From: Escherichia phage CSP1C | Length of the DNA stretch: 55,550 bases | Sequence record: PQ202980 | Direction: 5' to 3' (one strand) | In this document: positions 23,211 through 53,850 of the stretch, one piece after another | How positions within the stretch are numbered: the first letter of the stretch is position 1 | How the letters are laid out: every line of letters begins with the position of its first letter | Position numbers and translations under genes: made by a program | Notes under the pieces: generated by a model | The model's input: the letters and a program-made list of their open reading frames with translations, nothing else | Told to the model about the DNA's origin: nothing | Databases searched by the model: none

Positions 23211-23437
23211 TAGCGATCCTCGATTGCTCTAATTGTGGTTAAATCTAATTCACAGGTTGGAGGGTATCCATAAAGTCCCATTTGTTTTCCTTGTGCATTA
23301 AACCATGTGCCTGACGGATCCTGCCACTGCTTAGGTGTCTTGTGGAGAAATACTACTCTGTTTTCACCGTAATAATTAATTCTTACGCCTGTGTGAGTAT
23401 ATTTACGTTTACCTTTTGGTCTTCTTAAGTTAGCCAT
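23210..23437 (-). CDS. hypothetical small basic protein
   Basis: 75 aa; ATG 23437 overlaps dpdA stop, its own stop overlaps the clamp ATG. Confidence 0.45.
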   Translation of the reverse strand: MANLRRPKGKRKYTHTGVRINYYGENRVVFLHKTPKQWQDPSGTWFNAQGKQMGLYGYPPTCELDLTTIRAIEDR

Positions 23438-24357
23438 CAAAATAACTCCATTACACGATCACGGAATGTGCCGTCATGGGTAGCGTTAATGTTTGCAGCA
23501 ATTACACCATACGCCCATAAGTTGAAGGCAGCACGTGATTCATAGATTGTTGATAAACGTTCGTAAGTGAAACCGTTTTGCTCAAGGTATTTAAGGACAG
23601 CGTCTTGTTCAATTTCAGTTAATGTTGACACATGTTTACCAAAATGATGGCGGTCCGGTGACTTATCTGATACGCGCATTGGTCCCCACGGAGGAGTAAC
23701 CACACTTCCAAACGCTGCCGCTTGAATCCAGGAGGATGAGTCGCAGCTATACCACGGGTAACGCTCCATAATGGTCGTAGACGTAATACCAAATGCATGA
23801 AGCTTAATCTTAGGGCGACCGCTACCATCGCAAATGTATTTGTCCCACATGCGGTCCAGCCAAGTCTTAAGCGTGTCCGTTGAACGCCCTACCATGCCCC
23901 CAATGGTGATATATTCGTAGTTCTTCATGTAGTATTCAAGATAGCGGAAGTCCTCACCAAAGTGAAAGCATGGTAACGGTTTGGCGCCTCGTGCTTCCAT
24001 TTCAAGCTGGTTACGGTAGGTTTGCAGTGGGTCCCCGATACCATCAAGTACCGATGCCATTACCGCACCATCTTCTACCCGCAGAATATCTTTGTTGCGC
24101 TTGATGTACTCGCAGTATTCAACAATATCAATATGAGCACCCAAAGAGTGCGCAGAGAATGCACCGGAGTCGAGAAACACTTTAGCCCCGTCCGCACGCA
24201 TTTGATCAACATACTTCTGACGCCCAACGTAGTGGTATGATTCCAAAATATGGGGCAGATTGCGCGTGATATTTTTCTCATGCTCCGACAGCTTTTCATA
24301 ACGCTGCTGTCCAGGCATATATCCGTTTGTGTAAACTGCTGCCATAAAAACGTTCAT
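23437..24357 (-). CDS. dpdA: DpdA-like tRNA-guanine transglycosylase homologue (7-deazaguanine DNA insertion)
   Basis: 306 aa; TGT-like protein sitting beside folE/queD/queC/queE. Confidence 0.65.
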   Translation of the reverse strand: MNVFMAAVYTNGYMPGQQRYEKLSEHEKNITRNLPHILESYHYVGRQKYVDQMRADGAKVFLDSGAFSAHSLGAHIDIVEYCEYIKRNKDILRVEDGAVMASVLDGIGDPLQTYRNQLEMEARGAKPLPCFHFGEDFRYLEYYMKNYEYITIGGMVGRSTDTLKTWLDRMWDKYICDGSGRPKIKLHAFGITSTTIMERYPWYSCDSSSWIQAAAFGSVVTPPWGPMRVSDKSPDRHHFGKHVSTLTEIEQDAVLKYLEQNGFTYERLSTIYESRAAFNLWAYGVIAANINATHDGTFRDRVMELF

Positions 24358-24360
24358 GAC

Positions 24361-24567
24361 TTACTCCACGTTGTTTAAAGCTACTACTTCAATGAGATAA
24401 TTTTCTTTCTTAAAGCATTGCTCGCTTAAGATTTGTTCAACTCTAACATGTAGATCCGCATGAATTTGTTTTGCGTTACTGCTTTCAGCAATACCGTCCA
24501 TACATAACAGAACTCTGAAAGTACCTTTTTCTACAGCTCGAACGTTGAAAAAGTATTGTCTTACCAT
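24361..24567 (-). CDS. hypothetical small protein
   Basis: 68 aa from ATG 24567 with SD GGAGG; between folE terminator and dpdA. Confidence 0.4.
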   Translation of the reverse strand: MVRQYFFNVRAVEKGTFRVLLCMDGIAESSNAKQIHADLHVRVEQILSEQCFKKENYLIEVVALNNVE

Positions 24568-24582
24568 ATTTCCTCCAATGAC

Positions 24583-24620
24583 TAAAAAGCCCATACCAGT
24601 ATTATGACCGATATGGGCTT
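24583..24620 (-). terminator. rho-independent terminator after folE
   Basis: 9 bp stem AAGCCCATA / TATGGGCTT followed on the minus strand by TTTTT. Confidence 0.55.
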
Positions 24621-24638
24621 GATCTGTAAAGCTATCTA

Positions 24639-25226
24639 TTATTTACAAGCTTCAAGGAACTCCCGGCGCCATTCTTTACCAATATCGCTACCATGCTCCA
24701 GTTCTGTAGCGCCCCGGAACGCTTTGGTAATAGTAGAGCTACCACATACCTGCTTAACTCCGCGCGACTCCATGCACATATGTTTGGCGTCAATATAAAC
24801 GCATACAGCTTTCGGATTTAGGTGCTCCACAATAGCATCCGCAATCTGGTTAGTAAGTCTTTCCTGTACTTGTAAGCGACGTGAAAAAGCATCCACCACG
24901 CGAGACAGCTTACTAAGACCGACAATGCGACCGTTGGGGACGTAGCCAACCACAGCACGCCCAATAATAGGGGCCATGTGATGCTCGCAATGACTGTATA
25001 CAGGAATATCGCGGACAATGACCATTTCATTCGAACCTTCCGCACCATCTTCAAAGGTTTTAAACAATCCAGCGATATTTACATCGTAACCACCGAACCA
25101 TGTAGCATAAGCTTTAGCTACACGTGACGGAGTTTCTTGTAAGCCTTGACGCAGAGTAGGTGAAGCATGGTCTTCAATATTAAACAACAGGGACATCACA
25201 GCGTTTTCAACAGCTTTAATATTCAT
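24639..25226 (-). CDS. folE: GTP cyclohydrolase I
   Basis: 195 aa with hallmark HCEHHMAP motif and overall FolE-like sequence. Confidence 0.85.
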   Translation of the reverse strand: MNIKAVENAVMSLLFNIEDHASPTLRQGLQETPSRVAKAYATWFGGYDVNIAGLFKTFEDGAEGSNEMVIVRDIPVYSHCEHHMAPIIGRAVVGYVPNGRIVGLSKLSRVVDAFSRRLQVQERLTNQIADAIVEHLNPKAVCVYIDAKHMCMESRGVKQVCGSSTITKAFRGATELEHGSDIGKEWRREFLEACK

Positions 25227-25261
25227 GGTTTGCAGTTTCCTTGTTTGTTAATGTGGTCATA

Positions 25262-25795
25262 TTACAGGCTATAGTTTACGTGACATTTCGAAGTTTCTTC
25301 GATGGTGCATTCTACAAGTTGAACACCATGTTCGTCAAGCAGTTGCGGCCCAATTACGTTAACCATATATGCAGCTAAATTTTCCGCAGTCGGGTTGAAC
25401 GGTAAAGACACCAGCGAGTTGTCAAAGTCCCTTACATCTTGACCCGTAGTTTCGTCACAAAGTTCACAATCAACCTGAAGAGCTTTAATCAAAGGATCTT
25501 CTTCCCAATGCAGGAACTTATGATCCCAATTATCTTCCAACCACTGGCAGAGTGTAGTTTTAACCACACTAAAGTCAATCACGCGCCCGACGCGGTCCAG
25601 CTTAGCGCGCTCTTTTACTTCAACGTTAACAAGACCTCCGCCCATTTCAATTGGTACTTCTTTGACTGTTTCTTTCGGTGCAACCTTAAAGTGAAACTTA
25701 TAGTTGTGACCGTGAAGGTGACGGCACTTGCTTTCATGACCAACAACACGATGCCCAGCGCAAATTTCATGTGAACGAATTACTGTATAGCTCAT
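25262..25795 (-). CDS. queD: 6-carboxy-5,6,7,8-tetrahydropterin synthase
   Basis: N-terminal CAGHRV..HGHNY motif characteristic of the PTPS/QueD family; longer than bacterial QueD. Confidence 0.8.
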   Translation of the reverse strand: MSYTVIRSHEICAGHRVVGHESKCRHLHGHNYKFHFKVAPKETVKEVPIEMGGGLVNVEVKERAKLDRVGRVIDFSVVKTTLCQWLEDNWDHKFLHWEEDPLIKALQVDCELCDETTGQDVRDFDNSLVSLPFNPTAENLAAYMVNVIGPQLLDEHGVQLVECTIEETSKCHVNYSL

Positions 25796-26382
25796 TTTAA
25801 TACCTCTTTAGACTGTTCAATTTCTAATGCACGCTGTGCGGATGCAATAATATCTTTCAAATCTTCTACCAGACTTTTATGACCACGTTCGCCCGGCTGC
25901 AACGCCTTTTTAATCAAATGTTGTAAAGCTGGGTTAGTTGTTTTCCAAGCTTCCAAGACATCATACACGTCCACGATGCATTTTACAACATTGCCGTTTT
26001 CATCTTTACCATAAATAATTTTCTGATATTTATTCATGGGAATTTTAGATGGTTCATATTTGGTAAAAACTGCACCATTAAATGTATTACTTATGCTTAT
26101 TCCAGAAGAAGGTTGATGGTACACTCCGGAGCGAGTGTTTTCGCTGGCTTGTTTGACGTAATCATCCGCAACGATATATCGCCAGGCTATAATATCTTGA
26201 ACTTTATAAGGGCTATATTCATCCATAGCTGAACGCCCTTCTATAGCCCAATCCCATCCATGTAATAAATTCTTAACGTGTGTGCCGTTGCGCAAACGAA
26301 CTTCAAACTTCTCATTACGAAGAAAAATAGGCATTCCTTTACCGTCGTGTTGGTGCCAAATTTTATTAAGATTATCTTTCAT
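25792..26382 (-). CDS. hypothetical protein embedded in 7-deazaguanine cluster
   Basis: About 196 aa; ATG 26382 couples to upstream stop, own stop overlaps queD ATG; no recognisable catalytic motif. Confidence 0.5.
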   Translation of the reverse strand: MKDNLNKIWHQHDGKGMPIFLRNEKFEVRLRNGTHVKNLLHGWDWAIEGRSAMDEYSPYKVQDIIAWRYIVADDYVKQASENTRSGVYHQPSSGISISNTFNGAVFTKYEPSKIPMNKYQKIIYGKDENGNVVKCIVDVYDVLEAWKTTNPALQHLIKKALQPGERGHKSLVEDLKDIIASAQRALEIEQSKEVLK

Positions 26383-26383
26383 T

Positions 26384-26863
26384 TTACGCTCTCGCTGTAC
26401 GTGAATGAACTTCGTAAACAACCCAAAGGATGGCAGATGCTGTGAACTTGCTTAAGCTCATTGCTACCATTGATCCCGGATTAACAATACCTATAATACT
26501 TAAGAACACAATGGAGTCAATCGGTACAGCTACCAAAGAGCTAATAAATACACGTTGATGAAACGGCTTCTTAGTAATCGTGTATACCGCATAGTCCGCA
26601 AACTCACTGAGGGCAAAAGACGCAACTGATGCAACTACAACAGCAGGATCCCCAAATACCCAGCTAAGGATACAACCGACAATCATTGCAGGGATAACAC
26701 CTTTACCTGCGTTACGCTGTGCATAGTCGCGCAACACAAAGATAATACCTACAAAGAAAGCCATCATTGGGACTACGCCAAGCGGCGTGTTAAGCATTGG
26801 AAGGTAGGAAAAGCCCAGGTTTACGAATGTAATTGCAGCCAGATAAGCAACGATAAATTTCAT
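26384..26863 (-). CDS. putative queuosine-precursor transporter (YhhQ/DUF165-like) membrane protein
   Basis: 159 aa polytopic membrane protein from ATG 26863 (SD GGAGAA); location inside the preQ0 gene cluster. Confidence 0.5.
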   Translation of the reverse strand: MKFIVAYLAAITFVNLGFSYLPMLNTPLGVVPMMAFFVGIIFVLRDYAQRNAGKGVIPAMIVGCILSWVFGDPAVVVASVASFALSEFADYAVYTITKKPFHQRVFISSLVAVPIDSIVFLSIIGIVNPGSMVAMSLSKFTASAILWVVYEVHSRTARA

Positions 26864-26983
26864 ACTTTTGTTCTCCAGTTTTAACAGCGTTATTCGCTGG
26901 TTGTTGGGTTTAAAAGCTTTAGTAGTATAGTTGGGTTCCCGCACCCTAAACAATGCGCTAGCGGTGCGGTTTTCGCGGTAAGA

Positions 26984-27691
26984 TCAAGCTTTGCTAATAA
27001 ATTCGCTGTACCCTTTAGCACGCAGTTTGCACGCAGGGCATTCACCGCAACCATAGCCCCAGTCATGCAGAGTGCGACGGACGCCGTTATAACACGTATG
27101 GGACTGCTCAATTACTGTGGTTAAGAAGCCAACCTTATCCGCCAGCTCAAACGTTTCTGCTTTATTTAAACGCATAAGCGGGGTAACAAAATGAATATCT
27201 GTTTCATATCCAACGTTTAACGTAGCTTCAAGAAGATCAACAAACTGCTGGCGACAATCCGGATAACCGCTATAGTCTGTTTCACAAACGCCTGTAACCA
27301 CATATCGGGCTCCAACTTTCTGCGCGTAGGCGTGCGCGGTAGTCAGGAAAAGAGCATTACGGTTTGGCACAAAGCTAGCCGGAAGGTTTTTGTGCTGTTC
27401 GTGATGTTCGTTAACATCACCTTCGTTCCCGATTAAAGCGCTATTACCAATCTGTTTCAAAGCAGGTAATTCAAAGACAACAAATGGGACATCGTGCTCT
27501 TTACAGATCTGTTCAGCGCAAGCCAATTCCACAGTGTGACGTTGACCGTATGCAAAACCAATAGCGTAAACCTTATCATAGTTATTAAGTGCAAGACCTA
27601 AACAGGTCACGCTGTCCTGGCCGCCAGACAGGACGACAACGGCGGAGTTATGATTTTTTACAGGGAATACCAGTTTATCTAATTTATTCAT
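26984..27691 (-). CDS. queC: 7-cyano-7-deazaguanine synthase
   Basis: PP-loop VVVLSGGQDS and C-terminal Zn-binding Cys cluster CYNG..CGECPAC; ATG 27691. Confidence 0.85.
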   Translation of the reverse strand: MNKLDKLVFPVKNHNSAVVVLSGGQDSVTCLGLALNNYDKVYAIGFAYGQRHTVELACAEQICKEHDVPFVVFELPALKQIGNSALIGNEGDVNEHHEQHKNLPASFVPNRNALFLTTAHAYAQKVGARYVVTGVCETDYSGYPDCRQQFVDLLEATLNVGYETDIHFVTPLMRLNKAETFELADKVGFLTTVIEQSHTCYNGVRRTLHDWGYGCGECPACKLRAKGYSEFISKA

Positions 27692-27692
27692 T

Positions 27693-27881
27693 TTAGAAAC
27701 CTTTAAGGCTAATATTAAGATTAACGACCACTTGTTCAACTACATCATCAGATGTCATCTGACGCTTATGAATTTCAAGCTCCGAATGTATGTTCTTGGA
27801 TGCAGCACGACAGATAGCGTCATTCAGCTCGTCTTGTAAACGTTGCATCTTCTGCATAAGAATCACAGTCTCTTCATTCAT
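27693..27881 (-). CDS. hypothetical small protein (paralogue of 27874..28086)
   Basis: 62 aa, SD AAGGTG; shares ELN.AI..A....EL.I pattern with neighbouring gene. Confidence 0.4.
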   Translation of the reverse strand: MNEETVILMQKMQRLQDELNDAICRAASKNIHSELEIHKRQMTSDDVVEQVVVNLNISLKGF

Positions 27882-28086
27882 CTTCTACACCTTTAATATC
27901 ACAAGGATTGATTGTTACAGTTGACATCACAATTGGATGATTGCGTGCCCCGATTGTACTAACGTGATTAATATCTAATTCTACATGCACTCCCTGCATG
28001 GTAGCGTGAGCAATTGCAGAATTAAGTTTTTCTACCAGCTCAGTGATCATTTCCTGATGCTGTTTCGCTTCTTCCAAAGTGATCAT
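27874..28086 (-). CDS. hypothetical small protein (paralogue of 27693..27881)
   Basis: 70 aa, SD GAAGGTG; alternative ATG at 28050. Confidence 0.4.
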   Translation of the reverse strand: MITLEEAKQHQEMITELVEKLNSAIAHATMQGVHVELDINHVSTIGARNHPIVMSTVTINPCDIKGVEDE

Positions 28087-28342
28087 TTCTTTTCACCTTC
28101 ACTAATGTTTGTTTATAATCCATACCTTCAAGGTCAACTTCTGCCATTTCACAAAAGTTATCATCTTCCCAGTATGATGTCCATTTAGTTTGACTGTCCA
28201 TCAACGTTGGCTCATACTCGAATCCGTAAACTGTACCGTCTTGATCCGTAGCCAGCCACCGTACCCATTCAGGGACATCAAGCTTATTGCCAAAGTATTC
28301 AACTTCTTTAGTATGAACAACCTGACTTAATACACGCATCAT
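28040..28342 (-). CDS. hypothetical protein, member of 3-copy paralogous family
   Basis: 100 aa; VPEWVRWLATDQDGTVYGFEYEPT and EVDLEGMDYKQTL shared with ORFs at 49334 and 50172. Confidence 0.45.
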   Translation of the reverse strand: MMRVLSQVVHTKEVEYFGNKLDVPEWVRWLATDQDGTVYGFEYEPTLMDSQTKWTSYWEDDNFCEMAEVDLEGMDYKQTLVKVKRNDHFGRSETASGNDH

Positions 28343-29046
28343 TCCACCCCGATATATTTGTGAACCTGAAGCTGCAACGTGTACCCGTGTTTCATACAGC
28401 TTTTGACAACCGCTTGGATGTTACTGTGGTTAAGGTCTTCATCCTGCTCGTCCATTGGCTGTAAATATATCTTACCCTTGAACCCCTTCGGAGGTCTAGC
28501 GATAAATGGTGTAGCTTGATGATCTAATGCTTGAAGAGGCAAACCATCTTCCACGTTTACACAGCACGCTTTAAGTACATATTTAAATGCATTAGCGCGG
28601 TACAGCACAGAAGGATGAATCTTTGAGGTCTTGGGGCTACATACAATGACAGGTAGCTGGGAAAAGTCCTTCGGTAAAGGCATAGACCCATTAGTTTCAA
28701 TCTGTACCAAATACCCGCGCGATAACAGTTGTTCGACAAAAGGGTTAATTTGCTGACGGAACGGTTCACCACCAGTGATAACCACAAGTGAGGTGCTATT
28801 GCCTGATTCCAGCTTACGGCTTTCGATTAAACGCATGATATCAACAATGTGGTAAAGAGAACGACCTACAGTATAATCAGTATCACAGCCCGGACATTGC
28901 AGGTTACACCCAGCAAGTCGCACAAATACAGCAGGCTGGCCGCAGAATGGACCTTCACCCTGAATGGTAGAGAATACCGAATGCACGTCTAAATACATAT
29001 CGTTTTCTTTAGAACGAGACTCGGGAGCTTGTTGATTAATATTCAT
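28339..29046 (-). CDS. queE: 7-carboxy-7-deazaguanine synthase (radical SAM)
   Basis: Cys motif CNLQCPGCDTDY and VVITGGEP typical of QueE. Confidence 0.85.
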   Translation of the reverse strand: MNINQQAPESRSKENDMYLDVHSVFSTIQGEGPFCGQPAVFVRLAGCNLQCPGCDTDYTVGRSLYHIVDIMRLIESRKLESGNSTSLVVITGGEPFRQQINPFVEQLLSRGYLVQIETNGSMPLPKDFSQLPVIVCSPKTSKIHPSVLYRANAFKYVLKACCVNVEDGLPLQALDHQATPFIARPPKGFKGKIYLQPMDEQDEDLNHSNIQAVVKSCMKHGYTLQLQVHKYIGVE

Positions 29047-29061
29047 CTTAAATCCTCTAGT

Positions 29062-51002: not shown

Positions 51003-51069
51003 TTGAAGAAAATATCAAATATTGGAAAGGTTTTATTGACGAAATGCTGAAACCATTGGAGAAGAAATA

Positions 51070-51462
51070 ATGCTATTAGTCGTCACCGGAGGGCGTAATT
51101 TTAAACATGTAGAGTATATTTATGCTCAACTTGATAAGTTGCATACGCAAAGAAGGATAACCACACTTCGCCACGGTGACGCTTCCGGTGTTGACCGGAT
51201 TTGCGCACATTGGGCAGAGCGCAACGGTATTAAGACAGAAGCGTTCCCTGCGCCGTGGGGCAATCTTTCCTTACCAAATACCAAGATACGGTATAACGCC
51301 AGAGGTGCTTATAATGCACAAGCGGGCGCTTACCGTAATCAATTAATGCTGGATACTGATCCTAGACCAGATCACGCTATTGTGTTTCCGGGCGGAGCTG
51401 GTACTATGGATATGTACAGACGGATTAAAGCATCCGGTATCCCTTACACATTAGCGGAGTAA
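51070..51462 (+). CDS. SLOG/DUF2493-like Rossmann-fold protein (predicted nucleotide-binding)
   Basis: Gly-rich motifs VVTGGRNF, HGDASGVDRI and FPGGAGTMDM in LOG/DprA-like order; SD GGAGAAG. Confidence 0.45.
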   Translation: MLLVVTGGRNFKHVEYIYAQLDKLHTQRRITTLRHGDASGVDRICAHWAERNGIKTEAFPAPWGNLSLPNTKIRYNARGAYNAQAGAYRNQLMLDTDPRPDHAIVFPGGAGTMDMYRRIKASGIPYTLAE

Positions 51463-51465
51463 ATA

Positions 51466-51936
51466 ATGGCTGACGTTAAAACTATTGTTGATGCAATGGA
51501 CGAATCCAAAGACTGCCAACTGAAGAAGTCGTTTGAAGTAAAACAGGTTACAGAGACTCAGTTAATAGCAAGATTCGCACGTCATTGCGGCTTGGGGCGC
51601 GGGAAAGACTGGAACGGGCTTATTGTTATGCCTACATCACAGATCCTTGTCTATGTCCGTAATGTTGTAGAAGATGTTCTGCGTCTTCAGGTTGAAATCG
51701 GTGATGTAGAAATTAACATGACCGCGAGCTCTACCATTGTGGTTAAATGGCAGACGGGCGAGACACTTCGTTTAGAAGCGTGCCATTGCGCTAAGAGCTT
51801 GCATCACCTACGCGGTTGTCACTACCAGTTTGTTGGCTTTGTGCATCTACAAGGGTTAAGCGGGCGTACGGCGATGGTAGCGCGTTTGCTGCTGCGTCCT
51901 TATAATAACGAGCCGGAAGTCATATACGAGGCATAA
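51466..51936 (+). CDS. hypothetical protein with Cys/His cluster
   Basis: 156 aa; ACHCAKSLHHLRGCH suggests metal binding. Confidence 0.4.
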   Translation: MADVKTIVDAMDESKDCQLKKSFEVKQVTETQLIARFARHCGLGRGKDWNGLIVMPTSQILVYVRNVVEDVLRLQVEIGDVEINMTASSTIVVKWQTGETLRLEACHCAKSLHHLRGCHYQFVGFVHLQGLSGRTAMVARLLLRPYNNEPEVIYEA

Positions 51937-51937
51937 G

Positions 51938-52360
51938 ATGATTAAACATGTCAAACAGCCAACTTTAAATACATGCGTTTCTGCGTGTTTGGCAATGATC
52001 CTTAATAGACCTGTAGAAGAAGTAATTGCGGAATTTCATGATCGATATTACAACAACTGGGAAATAACAATTTCCGAATATTTAGTACAAAACAATGTTG
52101 ACCACATCTGTTCTGTGGGCGGTGGGCGTGAGACTATATACATGGGTGGTTTGTTTTTGTGCACTGTCCCAAGTCTCAATGTTCCTGGAGCACTGCATCA
52201 GGTTGTGATCGATACAACTAATCACAAGTTTATTGTACATGACCCAATTAAAGGTTGGGAAGGTAAAAAGTTCTACGTTGGCCCGGATCAAGATCCTGAA
52301 CAGCCAGGAGCATTTATCATTCATACTTGGGTTAAAGACGTTGAGATTGTGCTTAATTAA
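51938..52360 (+). CDS. papain-fold cysteine peptidase, C39-like
   Basis: N-terminal KQPTLNTCVSACLAMIL matches the C39 Q-x5-C..ACLAMI signature; downstream HQVVID and IVHDP give candidate His/Asp. Confidence 0.5.
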   Translation: MIKHVKQPTLNTCVSACLAMILNRPVEEVIAEFHDRYYNNWEITISEYLVQNNVDHICSVGGGRETIYMGGLFLCTVPSLNVPGALHQVVIDTTNHKFIVHDPIKGWEGKKFYVGPDQDPEQPGAFIIHTWVKDVEIVLN

Positions 52361-52422: not shown

Positions 52423-52608
52423 ATGACCAAACTATACGCCGGATTGTTTTTATTTGCGACGTTAATGTTCGCTGGGCTTTATACCTATACAGTAGTCGAA
52501 CAACCTTCCACGGTTATCCGAATCTTTGCAAGTACAGGGCTTTGTATCTGTCTTATTCTATTTGTTTTATGCATTGTTATTATCCAAGACCAAAGGAAAA
52601 TTAAATGA
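52423..52608 (+). CDS. small membrane protein (2 TM)
   Basis: 61 aa with two hydrophobic helices; stop overlaps next ATG (ATGA). Confidence 0.45.
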   Translation: MTKLYAGLFLFATLMFAGLYTYTVVEQPSTVIRIFASTGLCICLILFVLCIVIIQDQRKIK

Positions 52609-53069
52609 CCACAATTGCGTTTGATGGAAAAGTATTAGCTGCGGACCGTGGAGTTATGCGCGGGGAAGTTGTGACTGCATATAAGAAAGTTCACAGCGTA
52701 AATGGGCATCGTGGACGGTTTTTACTGGGTCTGTGCGGCCTTACAGCATTCACCGATCAAGTGCTGCGTTATTTTAATAGCGCTGAACCTGTTAAGTTCC
52801 CAGATATTAAAGTTTACAGCAAAGATGATGATTACGGGCAAACTTGCGGTCTTGCGGTTACTCCGGAAGGTACTTGCCATTTTATTTACAATGATGGTAC
52901 GTTGAGCGAGCCTATGCTGGACGGCTGGGGGTCGGATGGTAGCGGTTGTGTGTTTGCTGCGGGAGCTCTGGCTGCTGGTGCAAGCGCACGCGAAGCTATC
53001 GAGCTAGCAATCAAGCATACCACATGTGCATTTCTTGGCGTTGATACAATATCGTTTGAGGGTTTTTAA
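52605..53069 (+). CDS. Ntn-hydrolase, proteasome beta / HslV-like peptidase
   Basis: N-terminus MTTIAFDGKVLAADRG (Thr directly after Met) and later GSDGSG motif fit the proteasome/HslV fold. Confidence 0.5.
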   Translation: MTTIAFDGKVLAADRGVMRGEVVTAYKKVHSVNGHRGRFLLGLCGLTAFTDQVLRYFNSAEPVKFPDIKVYSKDDDYGQTCGLAVTPEGTCHFIYNDGTLSEPMLDGWGSDGSGCVFAAGALAAGASAREAIELAIKHTTCAFLGVDTISFEGF

Positions 53070-53330
53070 ATGACTACATTCAGTCACCTGATCCCACCTG
53101 CTTATCACAGCAAGGTAGTTGACCACGGGACGCATGTTGTAATTGGTGGCGAAATCTTTATCACAGATAACGAGGAAATCGCCATTGCAATTATTGACAG
53201 CACTCAGCATGACTTTATGGTTATCCTGCAACACGAACCCGATAACTTCACTTTTTACTCCAGCTACGGGGTCGATAAAGGTGGAAAAAGCCTTGTTAGC
53301 TGGTACATTAGCGAGTGGTTTGACGGGTAA
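53070..53330 (+). CDS. hypothetical protein
   Basis: 86 aa; ATG directly after upstream stop, SD GAGGG. Confidence 0.45.
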   Translation: MTTFSHLIPPAYHSKVVDHGTHVVIGGEIFITDNEEIAIAIIDSTQHDFMVILQHEPDNFTFYSSYGVDKGGKSLVSWYISEWFDG

Positions 53331-53412
53331 TCTCCTTAGATCAATTCTCCTTGCGCCGTATCAAGTTTCTCTGTTACCCTTGAGTGGTTCATGTCAAGCG
53401 GAGGAACTCGAT

Positions 53413-53850
53413 ATGGCACTTCAACCTCGTGGTATTCGTAATAACAATCCAGGCAATATTCGCTGGGGTGACAATTGGCAGGGCTTAGTTCCTGCTGATA
53501 AGCGGACCGATAAATCTTTTGCTCAATTCACGCAACCGATTTACGGCATCCGCGCTCTGGCGAAAGTCCTGACCAACTACACCAAACGTGAAGGCTTACC
53601 CAATGTGGGTAAGAAAAACATCGACACTGTACGTGAAATTATCTCTCGCTGGGCTCCGCCTAACGAAAACGATACGGAAGCGTATATTCGTTCTGTTGCC
53701 AAAGCAATTGGTGTTGAACCTAACGATCCAATCAATGTCTTCGACAAGACGATAATGTCAGGTTTGGTAAAAGCAATCATTCGTCATGAAAATGGCATGA
53801 TGCCTTACACGGACGACGTAATCAACCGCGCTATTGCAATGGTAATTTAA
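53413..53850 (+). CDS. putative endolysin / cell-wall hydrolase (family unassigned)
   Basis: 145 aa from ATG 53413 (SD GGAGGA) with N-terminal RNNNPGNIRWGDNWQG motif; assignment is positional (immediately upstream of holin and spanins). Confidence 0.4.
   Translation: MALQPRGIRNNNPGNIRWGDNWQGLVPADKRTDKSFAQFTQPIYGIRALAKVLTNYTKREGLPNVGKKNIDTVREIISRWAPPNENDTEAYIRSVAKAIGVEPNDPINVFDKTIMSGLVKAIIRHENGMMPYTDDVINRAIAMVI

What the first reader, a model, noticed from the sequence alone, without database searches (positions are those of the whole stretch)
51070..51936. SLOG/DUF2493-like nucleotide-binding protein followed by a Cys/His-cluster protein
The 130-aa ORF has the Gly-rich Rossmann motifs of the SLOG/LOG/DprA-like superfamily, whose members bind nucleotides. 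A phage copy next to two peptidases could sequester a host signalling nucleotide; this is speculation from domain family and context only.
Basis: inference. Interest (0 to 1): 0.4.

Follow-up and report, generated by a model that had tools for sequence, protein, structure and literature searches.

The report
Phage SLOG protein and Cys/His orphan
This small phage gene clearly belongs to a widespread nucleotide-binding family (DUF2493/YAcAr SLOG) that nobody has tested experimentally, and the gene after it encodes a cysteine/histidine-rich protein found only in this phage lineage; the family call is correct but ordinary, and the idea that it soaks up a host immune signal is still untested.

Summary
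Both ORFs exist exactly as described. The window is Cronobacter phage CSP1 (Seuratvirus, Queuovirinae).

ORF1 (51070-51462, 130 aa):
- It matches Pfam PF10686 (YAcAr, formerly DUF2493) at E 1.5e-17, well above the cutoff.
- Its AlphaFold model has mean pLDDT 96.
- Every family-invariant residue is present.

ORF2 (51466-51936, 156 aa):
- It has invariant Cys41, Cys106, Cys108 and Cys118 and His113, His114 and His127.
- It has no Pfam or PDB relatives and no reliable model.
- It forms only two 50%-identity clusters among 1.84 billion representative proteins, all from Queuovirinae-like phages.

The SLOG-ORF2-peptidase-like gene order holds only within this lineage. Elsewhere YAcAr genes lie mostly among replication, helicase, sigma-factor and DNA-methylase genes, in at least 689 phage records and 156 plasmids.

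The sponge idea is neither supported nor refuted here. The literature already predicts that viral SLOG domains sense or degrade ADP-ribose-derived signals. My verdict is a new member of a known, uncharacterised family, of low-to-moderate interest.

The parts
51058..51061 (+). Shine-Dalgarno-like GGAG, 8 nt upstream of the ORF1 start
   Evidence: Read directly from the sequence.
51070..51462 (+). ORF1, 130 aa: stand-alone YAcAr/DUF2493 SLOG-domain protein, equivalent to CAjan gp82
51088..51096 (+). G7-G8-R9, the Gly-rich loop after strand 1; invariant in the family
   Evidence: 62 of 62 sequences. Strand 1 is residues 2-6 in the model.
51175..51195 (+). G36-D-A38-S-G40-V-D42, which contains the GxD signature of the YpsA-like clade
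   Evidence: G36, A38, G40 and D42 are invariant. The GxD/E motif is described for the YpsA clade in PMC6459960.
51265..51315 (+). Residues 66-82, a beta-hairpin insert found in only a subset of the family
   Evidence: Strands 73-76 and 79-82 in the model. The insert is present in 26 of 62 members.
51334..51339 (+). R89-N90, invariant polar pair in the helix before strand 4
   Evidence: 62 of 62 sequences. Helix 85-95 in the model.
51385..51405 (+). F106-P-G-G-A-G-T112, the SLOG 'PGGxGT' loop
   Evidence: F106, G108, G111 and T112 are invariant.
51456..51459 (+). GGAG ribosome-binding motif for ORF2, inside the last codons of ORF1
   Evidence: Read directly from the sequence.
51466..51936 (+). 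ORF2, 156 aa: lineage-restricted protein of unknown fold with a Cys/His cluster, equivalent to CAjan gp83
   Evidence: phrog_25149 at E 2.2e-104, with no Pfam hit. No PDB hit. Only 2 full-length clusters in 1.84e9 representatives. AlphaFold pLDDT 52.8.
51781..51846 (+). Residues 106-127, CHCAKSLHHLRGCHYQFVGFVH: a conserved Cys/His cluster and candidate metal site
   Evidence: C106, C108, H113, H114, C118 and H127 are invariant, as is the distal C41. The model is low-confidence at 108-128.
51938..52360 (+). Context gene, 140 aa: possible papain-like (C39-like) peptidase; no functional link shown
   Evidence: phrog_4049 at E 1e-55. Pfam Peptidase_C39 only E 0.058, below cutoff. No PDB hit.
52605..53069 (+). 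Context gene, 154 aa: HslV/proteasome-like Ntn peptidase candidate, starting MTTIAFDG; no functional link shown
   Evidence: phrog_1040 'peptidase HslV family' at E 6.9e-32. Pfam Proteasome at E 0.011, below cutoff.

Best explanation
ORF1 is an intact, stand-alone member of the YAcAr (DUF2493) family, in the YpsA-like branch of the SLOG superfamily of Rossmann-like nucleotide-binding domains. This part is shown.

The rest is inferred. ORF1 probably uses its invariant pocket (G7-G8-R9, G40-x-D42, R89-N90, PGGxGT112) to bind a nucleotide-derived small molecule. The most likely ligand is an NAD+/ADP-ribose-type compound. The protein either holds the ligand or cleaves its ribosyl N-glycosidic bond, which would blunt a host nucleotide-based response or process a toxic or signalling ADP-ribose derivative during infection.

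ORF2 is a Queuovirinae-specific protein, probably metal-binding, whose start follows the ORF1 stop by three bases. Nothing beyond adjacency within one lineage shows that it works with ORF1.

The two downstream peptidase-like genes and the lysis cassette are neighbours by lineage-specific synteny. They are not demonstrated partners.
For: Identity:
- Pfam PF10686 at 63.6 bits against a 28.2-bit cutoff.
- pLDDT 96.2.

Intact pocket:
- All 18 family-invariant residues are present, including the polar residues R9, D42, R89, N90 and T112.

Ligand class:
- Family-level predictions for viral YpsA-like/YAcAr SLOG domains point to NAD+/ADP-ribose derivatives (PMC9503650; PMC7824862).
- I independently saw a NADAR gene two genes upstream of a YAcAr gene (L005/L006).
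- I also saw a DUF4326-YAcAr fusion (L033).

Real gene:
- It is conserved with SD motifs in 34 related phage genomes.
- The family occurs in 689 phage records and 156 plasmids.
Against: - No ligand, activity or phenotype is known for any YAcAr member. No solved structure of the family is detectable by sequence.
- The neighbour census is dominated by DNA-related genes: SF2 helicases 9, sigma-70 8, DNA methylases about 6, plus clamp, DnaB, polymerases and PD-(D/E)XK nucleases. ADP-ribose-processing domains are not prominent.
- The acidic residue after PGGxGT is not invariant (D 50, N 9, H 3 of 62), so catalysis is uncertain.
- The protein is basic (pI 9.7, family median 9.2), which would also suit nucleic-acid binding.
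- The annotated CAjan genome lists no Macro, NADAR or Nudix partner.
- No PADLOC hit.
Confidence: 0.4

Rival explanations
1. DNA-associated accessory factor. Like DprA, another SLOG protein, ORF1 would bind single-stranded or modified DNA, or sense a nucleotide and pass that on to DNA-handling enzymes. It would assist replication, recombination or protection of incoming DNA.
For: - Outside Queuovirinae the gene sits beside DNA ligase, PD-(D/E)XK nuclease and SNF2/DEAD helicases. It also sits beside DUF2800, an Enc34 ssDNA-binding protein and a DNA methylase.
- The census of 250 neighbours points the same way.
- Fusions to helicases exist: ICP1 HelB (10.1101/671271) and Pseudoalteromonas phage H101 'helicase'.
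- In conjugative plasmids the domain lies next to strawberry-notch and toprim genes.
- The protein is basic, pI 9.7.
Against: - ORF1 lacks the extra DprA domains and does not hit the DprA Pfam model.
- In this phage the gene is about 5 kb from the nearest replication-module gene and about 15 kb from the recombination genes, in the operon that precedes lysis.
- Invariant G-rich loops plus R/D/N residues look like a small-ligand pocket.
- Published interpretation of the helicase and nuclease fusions is that the SLOG domain is a sensor, not a DNA binder (PMC9503650).
Confidence: 0.25
2. LOG-like nucleotide N-glycosidase acting on the nucleotide pool. It would release a base plus ribose-5-phosphate from a (d)NMP or modified nucleotide, to remodel pools for a phage with modified DNA.
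For: - R89 is invariant, in the helix before the PGGxGT strand. From my own recollection of LOG sequences, that is where LOG carries its conserved Arg.
- Some neighbours are nucleotide-metabolism genes: RNR, ThyX, dCMP deaminase, dATP/dGTP diphosphohydrolase, HD_4.
- This phage group carries a 7-deazaguanine pathway.
Against: - The LOG catalytic Glu of PGGxGTxxE is absent. ORF1 has D114-M115, and D114 is replaced by N or H in 12 of 62 members.
- The gene is about 20 kb from the deazaguanine cluster, and the family is widespread in phages without such pathways.
- PMC9503650 places most viral SLOG domains in the YpsA-like clade, not the LOG clade.
Confidence: 0.12
3. ORF1, ORF2 and the two peptidase-like proteins form one Queuovirinae-specific functional module, for example a nucleotide-sensing switch that controls proteolysis or lysis timing.
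For: - The order SLOG, ORF2, 140-aa protein, small membrane protein, HslV-like protein, 86-aa protein, endolysin, holin is kept in relatives down to 65% ORF1 identity.
- The ORF1/ORF2 and ORF2/ORF3 junctions are 3 and 1 nt.
- ORF2 occurs nowhere without this neighbourhood.
Against: - All these genomes are one syntenic lineage, so conserved order carries little information.
- At 56% identity and below, the SLOG gene has entirely different neighbours.
- An extra 68-72 aa ORF is inserted between the ORF2 and ORF3 homologues in some relatives.
- The peptidase assignments themselves are sub-threshold.
Confidence: 0.1
4. Host-physiology effector resembling YpsA: binding its ligand would let ORF1 interfere with a host process such as cell division before lysis.
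For: - YpsA overproduction blocks division in Bacillus and Staphylococcus, and a prophage homologue, YoqJ, exists (PMC6459960).
- The gene lies in the operon leading into lysis.
Against: - Only 15% identity to YpsA.
- The YpsA division role is tied to a Firmicute-specific gpsB linkage.
- No evidence in Gram-negative hosts.
Confidence: 0.05

Closest known systems
Pfam PF10686 YAcAr (DUF2493), 'YspA, cpYpsA-related SLOG family'
   Same: ORF1 scores 63.6 bits against a 28.2-bit cutoff. It is a stand-alone protein of about 130 aa. It carries all 18 residues that are invariant in 62 diverse members.
   Different: Nothing essential differs. It carries the 17-residue beta-hairpin insert (residues 66-82), present in 26 of 62 members. 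The family has no experimentally defined function.
Bacillus subtilis YpsA (PDB 2nx2), founder of the YpsA clade of SLOG
   Different: Only 15% identity. YpsA is 178 aa and is linked to gpsB and cell division in Firmicutes. ORF1 is a phage protein in a Gram-negative host with no such linkage.
ThsA SLOG domain of type I Thoeris (PDB 7uxs, bound to 3'cADPR)
   Different: 13% identity. ThsA is a host effector whose SLOG domain is fused to a Sir2 NADase. ORF1 is a stand-alone phage protein. Ligand-contact residues were not compared.
LOG / PpnN (YgdH) nucleotide phosphoribohydrolases (PDB 5wq3, 9us2, 1rcu)
   Different: The Glu of PGGxGTxxE is missing. The nearest acidic residue, D114, is not invariant. 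ORF1 is shorter, at 130 aa against about 170-210.
DprA / ShosA (PDB 3uqz, 4ljk, 8zva)
   Different: No accessory DprA domains, and no hit to the DprA Pfam model. ssDNA binding is untested.
Phage immune-signal sponges and degraders (Tad1, Tad2, Acb2, Acb4, RyR-domain proteins)
   Same: Small phage-encoded proteins proposed or shown to neutralise nucleotide immune signals.
   Different: No similarity to them was detected or tested here. None of the retrieved papers on these proteins reports a SLOG-fold sponge. ORF1's role is unproven.

Membership tests
Pfam PF10686 YAcAr / DUF2493 | Profile HMM score above the curated gathering threshold | tested here: met
   63.6 bits against 28.2, E 1.5e-17, residues 3-63 on model positions 3-63 of 66.
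Pfam PF10686 YAcAr / DUF2493 | The family-invariant residues across the whole domain, including the C-terminal half that the Pfam model does not cover | tested here: met
   G7 G8 R9 G36 A38 G40 D42 W63 A85 G86 R89 N90 M93 P100 F106 G108 G111 T112 are invariant in 62 diverse members and all present in ORF1.
SLOG superfamily (SMF/DprA-LOG) | Rossmann-like three-layer alpha/beta fold whose closest structural relatives are SLOG proteins | tested here: met
SLOG superfamily (SMF/DprA-LOG) | Gly-rich loop after strand 1, and a PGGxGT-type loop after the penultimate strand | tested here: met
   TGGR at 6-9 follows strand 2-6. FPGGAGT at 106-112 follows strand 102-105.
YpsA-like clade of SLOG | Conserved GxD/E substrate-binding signature, as described in PMC6459960 | tested here: met
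LOG phosphoribohydrolases | Catalytic Glu of the PGGxGTxxE motif (feature recalled from the LOG literature) | tested here: not met
   ORF1 reads PGGAGT-M-D-M. There is no Glu. D114 is D 50, N 9, H 3 of 62 in the family.
LOG phosphoribohydrolases | N-glycosidase activity on nucleoside 5'-monophosphates | not testable with these tools
   Needs an enzyme assay.
DprA (DNA processing protein A) | Match to the DprA family model or its accessory domains, and ssDNA binding | tested here: not met
   PF10686 is the only Pfam hit at E up to 1. ORF1 is a single 130-aa domain. ssDNA binding is not testable here.
P-loop GTPases (the 'GTP-binding domain' label in public records) | Walker A motif GxxxxGK[ST] and a P-loop NTPase fold | tested here: not met
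Phage nucleotide-signal sponges or degraders | Binding or cleavage of cADPR isomers, cyclic oligonucleotides or related signals, and rescue of the phage from the matching defence system | not testable with these tools
   No experimental data exist for any YAcAr protein in the papers retrieved.
Zinc-finger or metal-cluster proteins (ORF2) | Match to a known metal-binding domain model, or a confident fold with clustered Cys/His ligands | tested here: inconclusive
Peptidase C39 (neighbour, 51938-52360) | Pfam score above threshold | tested here: not met
   13.7 bits against 22, covering only residues 3-24. A Q...C motif is visible in the sequence.
HslV / proteasome Ntn hydrolases (neighbour, 52605-53069) | Family profile match and an N-terminal Thr nucleophile | tested here: inconclusive
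   PHROG 1040 at E 6.9e-32, but Pfam Proteasome at 15.9 bits against 22.4 and no PDB sequence hit. The sequence starts M-T-T-I.

The most novel reading that the evidence does not exclude
ORF1 and the orphan Cys/His protein ORF2 would form a Queuovirinae-specific two-part device. The SLOG pocket would sense a host-made, or phage-triggered, nucleotide signal. Through ORF2, that would control the two downstream peptidase-like proteins or the timing of lysis. This would be a phage-encoded counterpart of the host's signal-activated protease immune modules.
Probability: 0.05. Interest if true: 0.75.

Novelty: new member of a known kind. Interest (0 to 1): 0.25.

Why it matters
YAcAr/DUF2493 is one of the commonest unexplained small domains in the mobilome. 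One query found it in 689 of about 50,700 phage records and in 156 plasmids. No ligand, activity or structure has been determined for it.

If a member were shown to bind or destroy an ADP-ribose-derived immune signal, that would add a large new class of phage counter-defence proteins. It would also test a long-standing computational prediction.

Seuratviruses (CAjan and the BASEL isolates) grow on E. coli K-12, and the BASEL isolates have already been profiled against defence systems (preprint 10.1101/2021.03.08.434280), so they look like a practical place to test this.

This particular copy adds nothing unusual to the family. It does show that public records give the gene four mutually incompatible names.

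Tried and rejected
- A second YAcAr paralogue in the window: none found. An HMM of alignment A1 against all six-frame ORFs hit only ORF1.
- NCBIfam and PADLOC scans of ORF1, ORF2 and their neighbours: nothing meaningful.
- PDB sequence searches with ORF1, alignment A1 and alignment A5: only chance-level hits, namely cytochrome c1 and BtuF fragments in the wrong order.
- P1 DarA: a weak profile hit (E 0.065) and an hhalign match of 87.8% over 30 columns, around 'AFPGGAGTEKMV'. Pfam sees only DarA_N and DarA_C, and the DarA C-terminal sequence lacks the other SLOG motifs. I rejected it as evidence of homology.
- Promoter and terminator scan of 46.5-55.5 kb: counts equal to shuffled expectation, so no regulatory element is assigned.
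- A link to the 7-deazaguanine pathway: considered and set aside. The gene is about 20 kb from that cluster, and the family is widespread in unrelated phages.
- The Burroughs et al. 2015 SLOG paper could not be retrieved. Statements about its classification rest on later papers that cite it.

Full report
**What is there**

The window is 100% identical to Cronobacter phage CSP1 (KY982929). It is 91-97% identical over this region to about 30 Escherichia phages of the genus Seuratvirus in the Queuovirinae, including CAjan, Seurat and several BASEL isolates.

The finding's coordinates exactly span two + strand ORFs:
- ORF1: 51070-51462, 130 aa.
- ORF2: 51466-51936, 156 aa.

Each ORF has a GGAG motif upstream of its ATG. 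The ORF1 stop and the ORF2 start are three bases apart, and a third ORF starts one base after the ORF2 stop. In CAjan these genes are gp82, gp83 and gp84.

They lie in a rightward block of small genes. That block runs into an HslV-like gene, then endolysin, holin and a LysB-like gene, and continues into the terminase and structural genes. The replication and 7-deazaguanine genes are on the opposite strand, 5-30 kb away.

**ORF1 is a SLOG protein of the DUF2493 family**

The evidence:
- Pfam PF10686 (YAcAr, 'YspA, cpYpsA-related SLOG family', the renamed DUF2493) matches at E 1.5e-17, 63.6 bits against a 28.2-bit cutoff.
- phrog_289 matches at E 2.6e-22.
- An AlphaFold2 model built on 14 sequences has mean pLDDT 96.2 and alternating beta and alpha elements.
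- Foldseek gives the same set of families.
- No YAcAr member has a solved structure detectable by sequence.

**The conserved pocket**

In 62 diverse family members, 18 positions are invariant and all are present in ORF1:
- G7-G8-R9, after strand 1.
- W63.
- A85-G86, R89-N90 and M93, in the helix before strand 4.
- P100.
- F106, G108, G111 and T112, the PGGxGT loop.

G40-x-D42 corresponds to the GxD/E signature that mutagenesis showed to be required for YpsA function (PMC6459960). The LOG-type catalytic Glu (PGGxGTxxE) is absent. The nearest acidic residue, D114, is D in 50, N in 9 and H in 3 of the 62 sequences.

The protein therefore looks like a competent, specific ligand-binding domain. Whether it is also an enzyme cannot be decided from sequence.

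There is no Walker A motif. The 'GTP-binding domain' label that PHROG-based annotation gives this gene is unfounded. Other records call the same gene 'putative DNA binding protein', 'phosphoribosyl transferase' or 'hypothetical protein'.

**Distribution and context of the family**

The family is very large and tied to mobile elements:
- A profile search returned at least 2887 homologues, mostly stand-alone proteins of 113-135 aa from phages and prophages.
- tblastn with ORF1 alone finds 689 phage records across Salmonella, Klebsiella, Vibrio, Mycobacterium, Rhodobacter and other hosts.
- It also finds 156 plasmids, 86 of them conjugative.

The gene order in this window is SLOG, ORF2, 140-aa protein, small membrane protein, HslV-like protein, 86-aa protein, then lysis genes. 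That order is retained in Queuovirinae-like relatives down to 65% ORF1 identity. It disappears beyond that:
- At 56% identity the gene sits between replication genes and a DNA methylase.
- At 31-35% identity it sits after a DNA ligase and near a PD-(D/E)XK nuclease and an SNF2 helicase, in one case with a NADAR gene upstream.
- In rhizobial prophages it sits between a sigma factor and a DEAD-box helicase.
- In Kuttervirus and KP34-like phages the neighbourhoods differ again.

I ran a census of 250 non-redundant neighbours from 76 viral loci. The results were:
- SF2 helicases, 9.
- Sigma-70 factors, 8.
- DNA methyltransferases, about 6.
- Integrases, 4.
- Smaller numbers of sliding clamps, DnaB, polymerases, PD-(D/E)XK nucleases and nucleotide-metabolism enzymes.

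This census is rough. It used simple same-strand ORF calling, and one rhizobial phage group is over-represented. It still shows no conserved peptidase partner and no dominant ADP-ribose-processing partner.

I did confirm one DUF4326-YAcAr fusion. In conjugative plasmids the domain is the C-terminal part of a protein of about 310 aa, next to strawberry-notch and toprim genes.

**ORF2**

The Cys/His cluster is real. Residues 106-127 read CHCAKSLHHLRGCHYQFVGFVH. C41, C106, C108, C118, H113, H114 and H127 are invariant in 12 homologues down to 56% identity.

ORF2 is otherwise an orphan:
- It has no Pfam, NCBIfam, PADLOC or PDB match by sequence or profile.
- An exhaustive HMMER search of 1.84 billion representative proteins found only two full-length 50%-identity clusters and two fragments.
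- The AlphaFold model is unreliable (pLDDT 52.8, and below 50 across the cluster).

A structural or catalytic metal site is the natural guess. The motif has no CxxC pairs and fits no family I could test.

**How it most likely works**

Shown:
- ORF1 is an intact YAcAr SLOG domain with a fully conserved pocket.
- It is a conserved gene of this phage lineage.

Inferred: it binds a nucleotide-derived small molecule. The best available guide to the ligand is the family-level analysis from the Aravind group. They place viral SLOG domains mainly in the YpsA-like clade and predict that these domains sense or cleave ADP-ribose-derived molecules made by host immunity. They cite fusions to Macro, NADAR and DUF4326 (PMC9503650; PMC7824862).

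My data are compatible with that prediction (NADAR neighbour, DUF4326 fusion, structural similarity to the 3'cADPR-binding ThsA domain). They do not add direct support. The predominance of DNA-metabolism neighbours and the helicase fusions (H31) keep a DNA-associated or sensor-for-DNA-enzymes role as a serious rival.

My estimates are:
- About 0.4 for 'binds or processes an NAD+/ADPR-type small molecule as counter-defence'.
- About 0.25 for a DNA-associated role.
- About 0.12 for a LOG-like pool enzyme.
- About 0.1 for a lineage-specific module with ORF2 and the peptidase-like proteins.
- About 0.05 for a YpsA-like host-physiology effector.

The family interpretation is right. The sponge idea is plausible, but it is already in the literature as a prediction, it is untested, and the peptidase neighbourhood does not strengthen it. 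None of the papers retrieved reports an experimental test of any YAcAr protein or a SLOG-fold phage sponge.

This is a new member of a known, uncharacterised family plus a lineage-restricted orphan. It is worth a bench test because the family is so common and the phage is tractable, but it is not surprising in itself.

Noticed in passing
window 51070-51462 and its orthologues in public records: The same gene carries incompatible names in different records: 'hypothetical protein', 'GTP-binding domain', 'putative DNA binding protein' and 'phosphoribosyl transferase'. More distant homologues are labelled 'DprA-like', 'DUF2493' or 'SLOG family protein'. The sequence has no P-loop motif, so the GTP-binding label looks like propagated misannotation from phrog_289.
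   Followed up: yes
L095 12905-14824 (- strand), phage P1 darA, residues about 520-541: The anti-restriction protein DarA shares an 'AFPGGAGTEKMV' motif with the YAcAr PGGxGT loop (profile E 0.065; hhalign 87.8% over 30 columns). Its C-terminal region lacks the other SLOG motifs. That region is unresolved in the published cryo-EM structure. This is probably a short-motif coincidence.
   Followed up: yes
L098 5416-6348 and L099 5410-6351 (alphaproteobacterial plasmids): Here YAcAr is the C-terminal domain (about residues 195-260) of a protein of about 310 aa whose N-terminal 190 residues have no Pfam match. It lies next to strawberry-notch and toprim genes and close to a WGR-domain gene. This looks like the establishment or leading-region gene set of conjugative elements.
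   Followed up: partly
L033 2974-3633 (also L036): A DUF4326-YAcAr fusion protein in a viral contig (DUF4326 E 6.3e-17, YAcAr E 1.1e-18). This matches the fusion class that the Aravind group links to ADP-ribose processing.
   Followed up: yes
window 52605-53069: A 154-aa HslV/proteasome-like protein starting M-T-T-I, with Thr at the position of the Ntn nucleophile. It is conserved just upstream of the lysis genes across Queuovirinae relatives. Why a siphovirus carries a stand-alone HslV-like peptidase is unexplained.
   Followed up: partly
window 51938-52360: A 140-aa protein with an N-terminal QPTLNTCVSACLAMIL segment, resembling the Gln/Cys active-site region of papain-like C39 peptidases. 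It scores only 13.7 bits against a 22-bit cutoff and has no PDB sequence relative.
   Followed up: partly
window 53143-53850 versus 53413-53850: The endolysin ORF can be read as 235 aa from a TTG start or as the 145 aa annotated in CAjan. KS_W4 annotates a longer 213-aa form, so start-site annotation is inconsistent among relatives.
   Followed up: no
window about 23400-29050, - strand (by synteny with CAjan gp35-gp45): The window should carry the DpdA, FolE, QueD, QueC and QueE genes for 7-deazaguanine DNA modification, typical of Queuovirinae. I inferred this from the CAjan annotation and matching ORF sizes and did not scan it here. It has no apparent link to the SLOG gene.
   Followed up: no
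ORF1 residues 66-82 (window 51265-51315): A 17-residue beta-hairpin insert between W63 and the A85-G86 helix is present in 26 of 62 diverse YAcAr proteins and absent from the shorter (113-120 aa) members. Its role is unknown.
   Followed up: partly
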